The translations under genes were made by a program, and so were the position numbers. Positions 11,067 through 12,663 of a DNA stretch of 28,035 nt are shown here, one piece after another (within the stretch, counting starts at the first letter, position 1; each line of letters begins with the position of its first letter). The notes beneath the pieces are model-generated. The model was not told where the DNA came from. It made no database searches and saw only the letters and a list, made by a program, of their open reading frames with translations. Source of the stretch: a virus (taxonomy: Duplodnaviria > Heunggongvirae > Uroviricota > Caudoviricetes); the IMG/VR virus record IMGVR_UViG_2563366924_000006, positions 1 through 28,035 of that record; one strand, written 5' to 3'.

Positions 11067-11520
11067 TTGTCACCGTTTAATGCCAGCGCAATTCCACCTG
11101 CAGTGGCTTTACGCAAATTCTCCCAGTGACGATTATCCAGCCAGATAGCCGCAGCGATGCTGTCCAGATTGTCGCCTTCCCCTGGCAACCAGTGGCGGCG
11201 CAGTATCAGATACTGCTCCAGCCCGTTGTGCTCAATAGCGCGAACCCGCGCCGTTAGTTTTTTACTTCGATTTCCAGCTCAGGCACAAACTGGTCATTAA
11301 CTTTTGCTGCCAGCTGCAGCGCAGCGCCCGGCTTCTCAAGAAGTGCGGTCAGCGCCTCTTTTGATTCTTGATCAACGATGCGGCGCAGGTAGTTATGAGC
11401 CGGCGCAATCTTGTTGTCTGGCATCATTTCGTTTACGAATTTGTTGTAATCCTGCATGGTCGGTTTAAACGTCAGGTCAGTACCGGATACACCCAGGACG
11501 ATAATTTGTTCTTTACTCAT
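11063..11520 (-). CDS. Tail assembly chaperone frameshift-extended product (gpE+E'-like), made by a -1 shift at 11257-11263
   Basis: Heptamer A_AAA_AAC at the end of the chaperone ORF; the -1 frame stays open for about 64 codons (KLTARVRAIEHNGLEQYLILRRHW...ALNGDK) and ends at a TGA overlapping the tape-measure ATG (AAATGAGC). Predicted lengths about 88 and about 152 aa match P2 E (91) and E+E' (142). Confidence 0.55.
11254..11520 (-). CDS. Tail assembly chaperone (P2 gpE-like), zero-frame product
   Basis: 88 aa from the ATG at 11520 (preceded by a GGAAAG-type ribosome-binding site); ends ...EIEVKN directly on a slippery heptamer; lies between lysis genes and tape measure. Confidence 0.7.
   Translation of the reverse strand: MSKEQIIVLGVSGTDLTFKPTMQDYNKFVNEMMPDNKIAPAHNYLRRIVDQESKEALTALLEKPGAALQLAAKVNDQFVPELEIEVKN
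11257..11263 (-). other. Slippery heptamer A_AAA_AAC for programmed -1 ribosomal frameshifting
   Basis: Six consecutive A followed by C on the minus-strand mRNA, immediately before the zero-frame TAA stop. Confidence 0.55.
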
Positions 11521-11794
11521 TGTTCGCTTTCCTTCGCAAAAAAATCTCATTAATAAGCGTGTTATGCCGAGCAGCACACACCGGGTAAATATCCTGATAA
11601 AGCAATAAAGCAGCAGATAAATCAGTGCCTGCTTTCCCCTGCAGGCGCGGCAGTTTTTCCGGGCACTTTGTCAGCAGATTTTCCTGATAGTGCACGTTCT
11701 GCCGCGCTGGCTGCGTCGTTGTACATCCTGACAAAATCATCAGAGACACAAACGTTAGTGAAAACCGGCTTATAAATTTCGCTGCGTATTTCAT
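11513..11794 (-). CDS. o-spanin (Rz1-like outer-membrane lipoprotein)
   Basis: From the internal ATG: MKYAAKFISRFSLTFVSLMILSGC..., a signal peptide with lipobox LSGC. Encoded in an alternate frame overlapping the 3' part of the i-spanin gene and extending past it. Confidence 0.6.
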   Translation of the reverse strand: MKYAAKFISRFSLTFVSLMILSGCTTTQPARQNVHYQENLLTKCPEKLPRLQGKAGTDLSAALLLYQDIYPVCAARHNTLINEIFLRRKANNE

Positions 11795-12002
11795 TTGGCT
11801 GCGCATTTTTCAGCCCTTCAATTTTTGTTTCCAGCTGGCGTGCTGAATCTGCTGCAATCACAACCAGTTCATCACGCAGTTTCTCACCTGTTTTTTGTGC
11901 GGCGGTATTGATGGCCAGCTGCACAGAATCCTGCTCCCAGCCCCGACAAAACCAGCCGGCGGCCAGACCAATGATGAGCGCCCAAAGTGTTGCGCGGCTC
12001 AT
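11622..12002 (-). CDS. i-spanin (Rz-like inner-membrane protein)
   Basis: From the ATG at 12002 (TAATG overlap with the endolysin stop): MSRATLWALIIGLAAGWF... gives an N-terminal transmembrane segment followed by a charged, likely coiled-coil periplasmic domain. Confidence 0.65.
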   Translation of the reverse strand: MSRATLWALIIGLAAGWFCRGWEQDSVQLAINTAAQKTGEKLRDELVVIAADSARQLETKIEGLKNAQPNEIRSEIYKPVFTNVCVSDDFVRMYNDAASAAERALSGKSADKVPGKTAAPAGESRH

Positions 12003-12391
12003 TAGCGCAGCTCGAAATGCGGGCAATCCCAGTTGTCATTGCCCACTTCATGGCCGTCACCGTTAAAATCACCGCCCCAGCGAATGCGAATACCCAACTC
12101 GTCTGCTGCCTGCTGCATGGCATGGTGCACCGGGATAAATTCAGCCACTTTCCAGGTGCCGCCAACCGGGAATAAATCCACAGCAAGCCCGTCCTGATGT
12201 TTACTGTGAGTGACTTTGGTTTTGTGCTCTGCATACAGCTGGCGCTGGCGTTCTGCCGTGCGCAGCCCTTCGATAACGGTAAAATCAACCGCCGTCAGTT
12301 GCAGGGCACGACGCACTACCGCAACCAGCTGCGGATTGACACCGCGTAGGTTGTCTTCACTGCGCTTGCCAAATACAAATCCATTGCTCAT
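12002..12391 (-). CDS. Endolysin, peptidase M15 family (L-alanyl-D-glutamate peptidase type)
   Basis: 129 aa; zinc-binding motif SKHQDGLAVD and C-terminal His (DCPHFEL) typical of VanY/M15 phage endolysins; ATGA overlap with the upstream holin gene. Confidence 0.8.
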   Translation of the reverse strand: MSNGFVFGKRSEDNLRGVNPQLVAVVRRALQLTAVDFTVIEGLRTAERQRQLYAEHKTKVTHSKHQDGLAVDLFPVGGTWKVAEFIPVHHAMQQAADELGIRIRWGGDFNGDGHEVGNDNWDCPHFELR

Positions 12392-12663
12392 TCGCTATCC
12401 TTATTTTTACGACGTAACCAGATTTCCAGAGCCTGATGCCCACCAATCCCTAACGCAGCCCCCGCGCCAATAATGGCCAGTGGGCTGATACCGGGAAACT
12501 GCAGCAAAATGGCACCGGCGGCAGTCGATGTCAGACTGCCGATAATCACACGCGAGAAAAAGAGGCGCGGGGTAATCGGGTCACTGCCATCGAGCATCTT
12601 TCCCAGCGATGCCAGAAAACCAATGGCCACCAGGGTATACAGCGTTTTTTCATGTTCCTGCAT
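12388..12663 (-). CDS. Holin (three predicted transmembrane segments)
   Basis: 91 aa with three hydrophobic stretches and a charged C-terminus (RRKNKDSE); immediately upstream of the endolysin. Confidence 0.7.
   Translation of the reverse strand: MQEHEKTLYTLVAIGFLASLGKMLDGSDPITPRLFFSRVIIGSLTSTAAGAILLQFPGISPLAIIGAGAALGIGGHQALEIWLRRKNKDSE

What the first reader, a model, noticed from the sequence alone, without database searches (positions are those of the whole stretch)
11513..12663. Complete lysis cassette placed inside the tail operon between tube and chaperone genes, with an overlapped two-gene spanin
Holin, M15 endolysin, i-spanin and an o-spanin lipoprotein encoded out of frame within and beyond the i-spanin gene are chained by overlapping stops and starts (ATGA, TAATG). 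They lie between the tube gene and the chaperone gene, whereas in P2 the lysis genes sit between the head genes and R/S. Lysis timing would then be tied to transcription of the sheath-tube segment.
Basis: partly seen in the sequence, partly recalled or inferred. Interest (0 to 1): 0.4.

Follow-up and report, generated by a model that had tools for sequence, protein, structure and literature searches.

The report
Standard HP1-type prophage lysis cassette
The four genes really are a holin, a cell-wall peptidase and a two-part spanin lying between the tail tube and tail chaperone genes, but this is the normal, already annotated gene order of HP1/ESSI-2-like P2-family phages, so the finding is ordinary.

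Summary
On the minus strand, 12663-11513 encodes four genes. They are a 91-aa holin (PF04550, E=5e-32), a 129-aa M15C L-Ala-D-Glu endopeptidase with all metal ligands conserved, a 126-aa i-spanin with one N-terminal membrane segment, and a 97-aa o-spanin lipoprotein (lipobox LSGC). The o-spanin starts in the +1 frame inside the i-spanin gene and runs past its end. The junctions are as described: ATGA and TAATG, plus an 8-nt overlap with the chaperone start.

The implied unusualness is not supported. The window is a prophage collinear with Escherichia phage ESSI2_ev239 (Peduoviridae). The order tube, holin, endolysin, spanins, chaperone, tape measure is the standard order of phages with an HP1-type tail. 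It is seen in HP1, F108, phiO18P, phi3, ESSI2_ev239 and Yersinia phage vB_YenM_324, where all five genes are annotated. It is also seen in 37 of 44 related enterobacterial prophage loci. It has been published for HP1.

Overlapped spanins are the commonest two-component class (228 of 528). P2's own lysis genes also sit inside a structural late operon.

Only the endolysin module is distinctive: it is shared with two close relatives and replaced by unrelated enzymes elsewhere. Interest is low, and the arrangement is already known.

The parts
12388..12663 (-). Holin, 91 aa. Three hydrophobic segments (about residues 7-21, 34-55, 58-76) and a charged C-terminus (RRKNKDSE).
   Evidence: PF04550 Phage_holin_3_2 at 110.5 bits, E=5e-32. 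phrog_175 holin E=1.6e-31. Hydropathy of the protein and of 37 distinct homologues shows three conserved hydrophobic blocks. The start lies 3 nt after the tube stop.
12002..12391 (-). Endolysin, 129 aa. A soluble M15C L-alanyl-D-glutamate endopeptidase of the phage T5 EndoT5 type, with no N-terminal signal or SAR segment.
   Evidence: PF13539 Peptidase_M15_4 at 26.5 bits (cut-off 25). phrog_465 E=4.5e-48. PDB 8q2g E=2e-23, 5opz ChiX E=6e-19, 2mxz T5 endolysin E=7e-19. H65, D72, D122 and H125 align with T5 H66, D73, D130 and H133 (PMC12686013). There is no uncharged stretch of 12 residues or more. The start overlaps the holin stop (ATGA).
11622..12002 (-). i-spanin (Rz/LysB-like), 126 aa. One N-terminal membrane segment (residues 4-19), a periplasmic domain and an invariant Cys85.
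   Evidence: phrog_1152 Rz-like spanin E=3e-27. A single N-terminal hydrophobic block is conserved in 39 distinct homologues, and Cys85 is present in 39 of 39. The ATG overlaps the endolysin stop (TAATG).
11513..11806 (-). o-spanin (Rz1/LysC-like) outer-membrane lipoprotein precursor, 97 aa. Lipobox L-S-G-C with Cys28, and Thr at +2. It lies in the +1 frame relative to the i-spanin gene, overlaps it by 185 nt and extends 109 nt beyond it.
   Evidence: Lipobox pattern and junctions. phrog_2425 E=3e-25 and phrog_456 Rz-like spanin E=4e-5. PF23793 LysC at 24.4 bits (cut-off 27) and NF038368 P2_Rz1 at 26.5 bits (cut-off 27). Cys28, Cys48 and Cys77 are invariant in 38 of 38 homologues, and the overlapped architecture is present in 38 of 38 loci.
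12667..13125 (-). Tail tube gene, the upstream neighbour (context).
   Evidence: PF10772 Phage_HP1_Orf24 E=2e-54. 65% identical to the ESSI2_ev239 tube.
11254..11520 (-). Tail assembly chaperone (gpE-like), the downstream neighbour. Its ATG overlaps the o-spanin stop by 8 nt.
   Evidence: PF10963 Phage_TAC_10 E=9e-35. Junction ATGAGTAA with an AAGGA Shine-Dalgarno sequence upstream.
11063..11263 (-). Predicted -1 frameshift extension of the chaperone (E+E'-type). The slippery site A_AAA_AAC lies at 11263-11257, a GC hairpin at 11251-11238, and the DUF6890 reading frame runs to 11063 (context).
   Evidence: Frame analysis. PF21830 DUF6890 E=5e-15. Hairpin GCGCGAACCCGCGC. The P2 E/E+E' annotation serves as the model.

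Best explanation
This is the lysis cassette of an HP1/ESSI-2-like temperate myovirus (Peduoviridae) integrated as a prophage, in the position normal for that lineage.

Likely mechanism:
1. The cassette is transcribed late as part of the long structural transcript (inferred). That transcript is probably activated by the phage's Ogr/Delta-type zinc-finger protein.
2. The four genes are translated as a tightly coupled chain (the junctions are shown; the coupling is inferred).
3. The three-segment holin accumulates in the inner membrane. At its own allele-specific time it triggers and forms holes.
4. The holes release the soluble cytoplasmic M15C endopeptidase. This enzyme cuts the L-Ala-D-Glu bond of the peptidoglycan stem peptide.
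5. The spanin complex then fuses or disrupts the outer membrane. It consists of an inner-membrane-anchored i-spanin and a lipid-anchored outer-membrane o-spanin, probably linked by disulfides through the invariant cysteines.

Gene identities, motifs and synteny are shown. Transcription, timing and enzymatic activity are inferred from the families.
For: Family assignments are strong, and the catalytic and localisation motifs are conserved.

The whole window is collinear, gene for gene, with Escherichia phage ESSI2_ev239, from the baseplate genes to the integrase.

The same slot (tube, lysis genes, chaperone, tape measure) holds lysis genes in several phages:
- HP1
- ESSI2_ev239
- phiO18P
- F108
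- phi3
- vB_YenM_324, where holin, endolysin, Rz-like spanin, O-spanin and chaperone are all annotated

Of 44 genomic loci with a related tube gene, 37 carry homologues of the holin and both spanins in the same slot. With ESSI2_ev239 that makes 38 cassette-bearing loci, and all 38 have the overlapped spanin geometry and a lipobox.

Literature:
- In HP1, hol and lys lie between the tail tube ORF24 and ORF25 (PMC7312051).
- The overlapped architecture accounts for 228 of 528 two-component spanins (PMC6139136).

Transcription context:
- An Ogr/Delta regulator lies at 22006-22356 (PF04606, E=5e-17).
- A unique perfect dyad at 19118-19149 lies 77-108 nt upstream of the scaffold ATG. This matches the geometry of the P2 pO activator site.
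- No sigma-70-like promoter was found on the coding strand between 8.5 and 19.5 kb.
- The GC content of the cassette is unremarkable.
Against: - No formal TMHMM, SignalP or LipoP run was possible. Topology rests on hydropathy, pattern and conservation.
- The first holin segment is short (about 15 residues), so a two-segment topology is not excluded.
- The o-spanin scores just below the curated LysC cut-offs: 24.4 and 26.5 bits against 27.
- The i-spanin has no Pfam or NCBIfam hit. It is recognised only by PHROG families and by homologues.
- Transcription was not measured, and internal late promoters of unknown sequence could exist.
- The window has no close DNA match among sequenced phages. 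Activity of this prophage is therefore unproven.
Confidence: 0.93

Rival explanations
1. The cassette is a recent, lineage-specific insertion (a moron-like acquisition) into the tail operon of this particular phage. On this view the placement is a novelty with its own regulatory consequences.
For: The position differs from P2. The endolysin gene is shared only with the Cedecea davisae and Buttiauxella gaviniae prophages and is replaced by unrelated enzymes elsewhere. Seven Xenorhabdus loci have the tube followed directly by the chaperone, with no cassette.
Against: The holin and both spanins are homologous and in the same slot in 37 of 44 loci from many enterobacterial genera. Lysis genes occupy the same slot in distant genera (Haemophilus HP1, Pasteurella F108, Aeromonas phiO18P, Pseudomonas phi3). 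There is no compositional anomaly. The seven cassette-less loci are head-less tail-only clusters, so they are derived rather than ancestral. Only the endolysin module has been exchanged.
Confidence: 0.03
2. The lysis pathway is a pinholin plus SAR-endolysin system, as demonstrated for HP1, rather than a canonical large-hole holin with a soluble endolysin.
For: HP1, which has the same gene order, uses a pinholin and a SAR lysozyme (PMC7312051). The HP1 lys product starts with a hydrophobic N-terminus.
Against: The holin here belongs to a different family: PF04550 against PF16080 for HP1. It has three hydrophobic segments. The endolysin has no N-terminal hydrophobic or uncharged stretch and is an M15C peptidase, not a lysozyme. 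It therefore needs holes large enough for a folded 14-kDa protein.
Confidence: 0.04
3. The 97-aa out-of-frame ORF is a chance ORF. The outer-membrane step would then be carried out by the i-spanin-like protein alone, or not at all.
For: Gene callers skip it: no gene was called between 3662-4042 and 4144 in the Logan contig, and it is not annotated in ESSI2_ev239 or HP1. Its LysC scores are below the curated cut-offs.
Against: The ORF is conserved in the same +1 frame in 38 of 38 loci. It has a lipobox, three invariant cysteines and an invariant C-terminal motif despite only 40-58% identity. phrog_2425 E=3e-25. The equivalent gene is annotated as O-spanin in vB_YenM_324. Kongari et al. report that the o-spanin went unidentified in 196 spanin systems, with embedded and overlapped o-spanin genes mostly unannotated (PMC6139136).
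Confidence: 0.02

Closest known systems
Lysis cassettes of ESSI-2-like Peduoviridae (Escherichia phage ESSI2_ev239, Cronobacter phage ESSI-2, Yersinia phage vB_YenM_324)
   Same: Whole-genome collinearity with the window. The order is the same: sheath, tube, holin, endolysin, i-spanin, overlapped o-spanin, chaperone, tape measure. Holin (about 50% identity), i-spanin (50-54%) and o-spanin (53%) are homologous. The holin/endolysin start-stop overlap is also the same.
   Different: Their endolysin is a 113-aa M15_4 protein with no detectable pairwise similarity to the 129-aa M15C enzyme here. The sheath here carries an extra domain of about 128 aa.
Haemophilus phage HP1 lytic module (hol, lys, orf25), experimentally characterised
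   Same: Same slot between the tail tube (ORF24) and the chaperone and tape measure genes. It also has an i-spanin with an overlapped lipoprotein ORF (PMC7312051).
   Different: HP1 uses a two-segment pinholin (PF16080) and a SAR lysozyme (PF00959). Here there is a PF04550 holin and a soluble M15C peptidase. No sequence similarity was detected for holin, endolysin or spanins.
Phage P2 lysis genes Y, K, lysA, lysB, lysC
   Same: P2 is in the same virus family, with an Ogr-type late activator. Its lysis genes are also embedded in a structural late operon. It has an overlapped LysB/LysC spanin pair whose 3' end overlaps the next structural gene. The o-spanin here is a borderline LysC relative.
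   Different: In P2 the cassette sits between L/X and R/S, not between tube and chaperone. P2 uses a different endolysin (K) and has the extra lysA gene. No lysA equivalent is present here.
Phage T5 endolysin EndoT5 (PDB 2MXZ) and related M15C L-Ala-D-Glu endopeptidases (8Q2G, ChiX 5OPZ)
   Same: Full-length homology, with Zn ligands and the catalytic Asp conserved. The same enzyme type is used as an endolysin in more than 1,200 phage records.
   Different: At most about 54% identity to any sequenced phage endolysin. Here the enzyme is embedded in an HP1-type cassette.

Membership tests
Phage holin family PF04550 (Phage_holin_3_2) | Score above the Pfam gathering threshold over the full model | tested here: met
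   110.5 bits against a cut-off of 25, model positions 1-86 of 86. phrog_175 holin E=1.6e-31.
Phage holin family PF04550 (Phage_holin_3_2) | Small membrane protein with multiple transmembrane segments and a charged, basic C-terminus | tested here: met
   91 aa. Uncharged stretches lie at 7-21, 39-54 and 56-75, with a Kyte-Doolittle 19-residue maximum of 1.62. Three hydrophobic blocks are conserved in 37 homologues. The C-terminus is RRKNKDSE. Hydropathy only; TMHMM was not available.
Phage holin family PF04550 (Phage_holin_3_2) | Timed hole formation in the inner membrane | not testable with these tools
   Requires expression and lysis or energy-poison triggering assays.
Peptidase M15C, L-alanyl-D-glutamate endopeptidase endolysins (T5 EndoT5 type) | Sequence homology to solved family members | tested here: met
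   8q2g E=2e-23, 23ri E=6e-23, 5opz E=6e-19, 2mxz E=7e-19 over residues 4-128. PF13539 at 26.5 bits against a cut-off of 25.
Peptidase M15C, L-alanyl-D-glutamate endopeptidase endolysins (T5 EndoT5 type) | Zn-binding His, Asp and His, plus the catalytic Asp | tested here: met
   SKH65QDGLAVD72 and D122CPH125 align with T5 H66, D73, D130 and H133. Residue roles are from PMC12686013.
Peptidase M15C, L-alanyl-D-glutamate endopeptidase endolysins (T5 EndoT5 type) | Cleavage of the L-Ala-D-Glu bond of peptidoglycan | not testable with these tools
   A biochemical assay is needed.
Two-component spanin, overlapped architecture (P2 LysB/LysC type) | i-spanin: type II inner-membrane protein with a single N-terminal transmembrane segment and a periplasmic domain | tested here: met
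   There is only one uncharged stretch, residues 4-19, with a 15-residue hydropathy of 1.85. It is conserved in 39 homologues. phrog_1152 Rz-like spanin E=3e-27.
Two-component spanin, overlapped architecture (P2 LysB/LysC type) | o-spanin: lipoprotein signal with a lipobox Cys and an outer-membrane sorting residue (not Asp) at +2 | tested here: met
   MILSGC28|TTT. The lipobox Cys is invariant in 38 of 38. The +2 residue is Thr here and is never Asp in any locus surveyed. Pattern-based; LipoP was not available.
Two-component spanin, overlapped architecture (P2 LysB/LysC type) | o-spanin gene starts out of frame inside the i-spanin gene and ends beyond it | tested here: met
   The start at 11806 is 196 nt into the i-spanin gene (+1 frame). 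The overlap is 185 nt and the end at 11513 is 109 nt past the i-spanin stop. The same geometry is found in 38 of 38 loci.
Two-component spanin, overlapped architecture (P2 LysB/LysC type) | Periplasmic cysteines available for intermolecular disulfides | tested here: met
   i-spanin Cys85 is present in 39 of 39. o-spanin Cys48 and Cys77 are present in 38 of 38.
Two-component spanin, overlapped architecture (P2 LysB/LysC type) | Membership of the curated LysC families (PF23793, NF038368) at their thresholds | tested here: not met
   24.4 and 26.5 bits against a cut-off of 27 in both. This is a distant relative. It works like LysC but is not a curated family member.
HP1-type tail module of Peduoviridae (HP1-like / ESSI-2-like phages) | HP1 Orf24-type tube and DUF2586 sheath, with the gene order L-R-S-sheath-tube-[lysis]-chaperone-tape measure | tested here: met
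   PF10772 E=2e-54 and PF10758 E=2.5e-128. GPL, GpR and Phage_tail_S lie upstream. The window is collinear with ESSI2_ev239 across 31 proteins.

The most novel reading that the evidence does not exclude
The unbroken chain of overlapping or abutting reading frames runs from tube to holin, endolysin, i-spanin and o-spanin, and then to the chaperone through an 8-nt overlap. This could mean that translation of the tail assembly chaperone, and of its frameshift product, is coupled to translation of the o-spanin. The amounts of lysis proteins and of tail assembly factors would then be mechanistically linked in this lineage. In addition, the tube/chaperone slot may act as a fixed exchange site. Whole holin and endolysin modules appear to be swapped there: pinholin plus SAR lysozyme in HP1, a 113-aa M15_4 enzyme in most relatives, and the M15C enzyme here. 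The cassette has been lost altogether in head-less tailocin-like derivatives.
Probability: 0.15. Interest if true: 0.3.

Novelty: already known. Interest (0 to 1): 0.07.

Why it matters
It matters little beyond correct annotation. The region is a textbook holin-endolysin-spanin cassette in the position typical of HP1/ESSI-2-like phages.

Practical value:
- The overlapped o-spanin (11806-11513) is missed by gene callers and should be annotated. The same applies to HP1 and ESSI2_ev239.
- The endolysin is a small, soluble M15C peptidase of a type being explored as an enzybiotic.
- The comparison shows that the cassette position is conserved while its enzyme content is mosaic.

Tried and rejected
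- Megablast of 11200-13200 against the phage collection and against complete E. coli genomes found no match. Relatives were therefore found at protein level.
- The search for the P2-type Ogr box TGT-N12-ACA gave 2 hits, none near an operon start, which is below chance expectation.
- A relaxed search for further copies of the 19118-19149 dyad gave 12 hits against 10.2 expected, so no second site was found. A strict search found only the one site.
- The sigma-70 promoter scan found none on the coding strand between 8.5 and 19.5 kb.
- The terminator-like hairpin at 11646-11627 lies across the i-spanin stop and inside the o-spanin ORF. I rejected it as a terminator because its T-tail is weak (ACTGATTTAT) and because such hits are near chance level (19 found against 11.9 expected).
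- The Pfam hit of the i-spanin to Glyco_hydro_123_N_2 (23.3 bits, below cut-off) was rejected as spurious.
- NCBIfam gave nothing for the holin, endolysin, i-spanin or chaperone.
- Rfam and tRNA scans of the window were empty.
- ORFs on the opposite strand or in other frames over the cassette (12473-12997 +, 11884-12288 -, and others) have no support and were treated as shadow ORFs.
- The TTG start at 12026 for the i-spanin was rejected in favour of the ATG at 12002, which gives the TAATG junction and matches the homologues.
- The Esposito 1996 HP1 genome paper (PMC145952) was not in the held library.
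Full report
**1. What is in the sequence**

All relevant genes lie on the minus strand. Read 5' to 3' on that strand, they are:

| Gene | Coordinates | Size |
|---|---|---|
| Sheath | 14648-13125 | 507 aa |
| Tube | 13125-12667 | 152 aa |
| Holin | 12663-12388 | 91 aa |
| Endolysin | 12391-12002 | 129 aa |
| i-spanin | 12002-11622 | 126 aa, ATG start |
| o-spanin | 11806-11513 | 97 aa |
| Tail assembly chaperone | 11520-11254 | 88 aa |
| DUF6890 reading frame | ends at 11063 | |
| Tape measure protein | 11066-8826 | 746 aa |

I read the junctions directly:
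- Tube to holin: TGAGCCATG.
- Holin to endolysin: ATGA.
- Endolysin to i-spanin: TAATG.
- o-spanin to chaperone: ATGAGTAA, an 8-nt overlap.

The o-spanin starts 196 nt into the i-spanin gene, in the +1 frame. It shares 185 nt with that gene and continues 109 nt past its stop.

**2. Identity of the four products**

*Holin.*
- PF04550 at 110.5 bits, E=5e-32, over the full model. phrog_175 'holin' E=1.6e-31.
- Three uncharged hydrophobic stretches lie at residues 7-21, 39-54 and 56-75. The 19-residue Kyte-Doolittle maximum is 1.62. The C-terminus is basic.
- The same three hydrophobic blocks appear in the column-averaged hydropathy of 37 distinct homologues.

*Endolysin.*
- phrog_465 E=4.5e-48. 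PF13539 Peptidase_M15_4 is just above its threshold.
- It has clear homology to solved L-alanyl-D-glutamate endopeptidases: 8q2g E=2e-23, ChiX 5opz E=6e-19, T5 endolysin 2mxz E=7e-19 over residues 4-128.
- In the 2mxz alignment, H65, D72, D122 and H125 of the query fall on T5 H66, D73, D130 and H133. PMC12686013 names H66, D73 and H133 as the catalytically relevant residues of 2MXZ.
- It has no N-terminal hydrophobic stretch. It is therefore a soluble cytoplasmic enzyme that needs a holin for export.

*i-spanin.*
- phrog_1152 'Rz-like spanin' E=3e-27.
- It has a single hydrophobic segment at residues 4-19 and an invariant periplasmic Cys85, present in 39 of 39 homologues.

*o-spanin.*
- Lipobox L-S-G-C, with Cys28 followed by Thr at +2.
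- phrog_2425 E=3e-25.
- Matches to the P2 LysC models fall just below threshold: PF23793 at 24.4 bits and NF038368 at 26.5 bits, both against 27.
- Cys28, Cys48 and Cys77 are invariant in 38 of 38 homologues.

TMHMM and LipoP were not available. The membrane and lipoprotein calls rest on hydropathy, pattern and conservation.

**3. What the element is**

The tube is a Phage_HP1_Orf24 protein (E=2e-54) and the sheath is DUF2586. A protein search of the phage collection with the tube found 76 records. All those listed were temperate Peduoviridae of the HP1-type branch, from hosts including Escherichia, Cronobacter, Yersinia, Aeromonas, Pasteurella, Haemophilus, Pseudomonas and Vibrio.

The window is collinear, gene for gene, with the complete genome of Escherichia phage ESSI2_ev239, genus Evevirus. 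Thirty-one proteins match in order, from the baseplate genes at the left end to the integrase at 27016-28035. The window is therefore an almost complete prophage.

The closest genomic relatives are prophages of Cedecea davisae DSM 4568 and Buttiauxella gaviniae ATCC 51604 (tube 99-100% identical). The exact holin sequence occurs in at least 50 blocks of the assembly collection, with the same neighbours in the contig shown.

**4. Is the placement unusual?**

No. Annotated records show the same slot (tube, lysis genes, chaperone, tape measure) in:
- HP1: hol, lys, Rz-like orf25.
- ESSI2_ev239: holin, endolysin, Rz-like spanin.
- phiO18P.
- F108.
- Pseudomonas phi3.
- Yersinia phage vB_YenM_324, where holin, endolysin, Rz-like spanin, O-spanin and tail assembly chaperone are all annotated in that order.

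Of 44 loci with a related tube gene, drawn from one genome per bacterial species, 37 carry homologues of this holin and of both spanins between tube and chaperone. Adding ESSI2_ev239 gives 38 cassette-bearing loci. In all 38, the o-spanin is overlapped, out of frame and lipobox-bearing.

The arrangement is also in print.
- PMC7312051 states that HP1 hol and lys lie between ORF24 (tail tube) and ORF25 and are transcribed on a late transcript.
- Kongari et al. count 228 overlapped systems among 528 two-component spanins, which makes it the largest class, with P2 LysB/LysC as the prototype. They list the spanins of HP1, ESSI-2, K139 and phiO18P.

**5. The comparison with P2 and the timing argument**

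Y, K, lysA, lysB and lysC lie between L/X and R/S.

But that record also shows that P2's lysis genes belong to a structural late operon, the O operon: O N M L X Y K lysA lysB R S. It also shows that lysC overlaps the start of R. Being embedded in, and translationally chained to, morphogenetic genes is therefore common to both branches. Only the slot differs. Here the order is L-R-S-sheath-tube-[lysis]-E-E'-T (Pfam GPL, GpR and Phage_tail_S upstream).

On transcription:
- I found an Ogr/Delta zinc-finger gene at 22006-22356 (PF04606, E=5e-17).
- There is one perfect dyad, TGCGTTCCG-N14-CGGAACGCA, at 19118-19149. It lies 77-108 nt upstream of the scaffold ATG, which is the same geometry as the P2 pO activator site.
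- There is no sigma-70-like promoter on the coding strand between 8.5 and 19.5 kb.
- No second copy of the dyad was found.

Co-transcription of the cassette with the head and tail genes is thus plausible, but it is inferred. By established knowledge of holin biology, the moment of lysis is set by holin accumulation and triggering, not by the timing of late transcription.

**6. What is specific to this element**

The slot is conserved, but its enzyme content is mosaic.

| Loci | Enzyme in the endolysin position |
|---|---|
| Window, Cedecea davisae and Buttiauxella gaviniae prophages | 129-aa M15C enzyme |
| Most relatives | 113-aa Peptidase_M15_4 protein with no detectable BLASTP similarity to the 129-aa enzyme |
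| Two loci (L036, L041) | 136-aa protein without a Pfam hit |
| HP1 | SAR lysozyme (PF00959), with a PF16080 pinholin |
| phiO18P | another enzyme (153 aa, no Pfam hit), plus an inserted methyltransferase gene |

The M15C type is itself widespread, with homologues in 1,259 phage records at 54% identity or less. The GC content across the cassette is unremarkable. This is ordinary modular exchange.

**7. Mechanism (best explanation)**

Late transcription produces holin, endolysin and spanins together with the virion proteins.

1. The holin accumulates in the inner membrane and triggers.
2. The folded M15C peptidase escapes to the periplasm and cleaves the L-Ala-D-Glu bond of the stem peptide.
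3. The i-spanin/o-spanin complex, already spanning the periplasm, removes the outer-membrane barrier. The complex is probably disulfide-linked through the invariant cysteines.

A pinholin/SAR pathway, as in HP1, is unlikely because the endolysin lacks any N-terminal membrane segment and the holin belongs to a different family.

**8. Verdict**

The arrangement is already known and annotated in several sequenced phages. Interest is low.

**9. Things noticed in passing**

- An extra domain of about 128 aa in the sheath.
- A canonical -1 frameshift signal at the end of the chaperone gene.
- Seven head-less, cassette-less tail clusters in Xenorhabdus.
- An unannotated overlapped o-spanin in HP1.
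- A likely late-promoter dyad.

These are detailed in the separate list.

Noticed in passing
window 14175-14558 (minus strand; sheath residues about 31-158): The sheath is 507 aa, against about 375 aa in ESSI2_ev239 and nearly all relatives. An insertion of about 128 aa follows the first 30 residues. It is Ala/Thr/Gly-rich and overlaps a PF11863 (DUF3383/E217_gp31_N) match at residues 37-254. Only the window and the Cedecea davisae and Buttiauxella gaviniae prophages have it among 44 loci.
   Followed up: partly
window 11238-11263 (minus strand), extending to 11063: There is a canonical -1 programmed frameshift signal at the end of the chaperone gene. The slippery heptamer A_AAA_AAC lies at 11263-11257. 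Five nucleotides later comes a GC hairpin (GCGCG-GGTT-CGCGC, 11251-11238). The -1 frame stays open to 11063 and encodes DUF6890, which would give a P2 E/E+E'-type fusion.
   Followed up: partly
L006, L007, L009-L013 (Xenorhabdus vietnamensis, anantnagensis, budapestensis, indica, yunnanensis, mauleonii, stockiae), about 2700-12400 in each locus: Seven loci have a homologous tube (66-67% identity) followed directly by the chaperone, with a gap of 127-214 bp and no lysis cassette. They lack scaffold, capsid, small terminase, head completion and gpS genes. Each consists of an Ogr-like regulator, gpR, sheath, tube, chaperone, tape measure, baseplate and fibre. In L006, the only locus whose flank was read, the cluster lies next to a large multi-pass membrane protein gene that looks like a host gene. 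This is a head-less, tailocin-like cluster derived from this phage lineage. Several of these species also carry a complete prophage of the same type (e.g. L017, L020).
   Followed up: partly
L003 6917-7183 (HP1 record NC_001697 about 20916-21182): HP1 has an unannotated 88-aa ORF overlapping the end of orf25. It has a lipobox (LLAC) and a PF23793 LysC hit above threshold (31.5 bits against 27). HP1 therefore also has an overlapped two-component spanin, although PMC7312051 reported that ORF25 did not resemble known spanins.
   Followed up: partly
window 19118-19149: A perfect 9-bp inverted repeat, TGCGTTCCG-N14-CGGAACGCA, lies in the divergent region between the scaffold and terminase genes, 77-108 nt upstream of the scaffold ATG. 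It is unique in the window (0.02 expected by chance). Its geometry matches the P2 pO/pP activator-binding site, so it is a candidate site for the Ogr/Delta-like protein encoded at 22006-22356.
   Followed up: partly
window 12002-12391 compared with L001 5762-6103, L036 6759-7169, L003 6107-6667: Non-orthologous replacement of the endolysin between conserved holin and spanin genes. At least five unrelated or undetectably related enzymes occupy the same position in different members of the lineage. The 136-aa type (L036 Arsenophonus, L041 Providencia) has no Pfam match.
   Followed up: partly
window 16288-16383: This 96-nt non-coding gap between the small terminase and head-completion genes is one of only two gaps of about 50 nt or more in the late gene array. 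The other is the roughly 50-nt frameshift region after the chaperone gene. ESSI2_ev239 has a small hypothetical gene (gp20, 63 aa) at this position, which is absent here.
   Followed up: no
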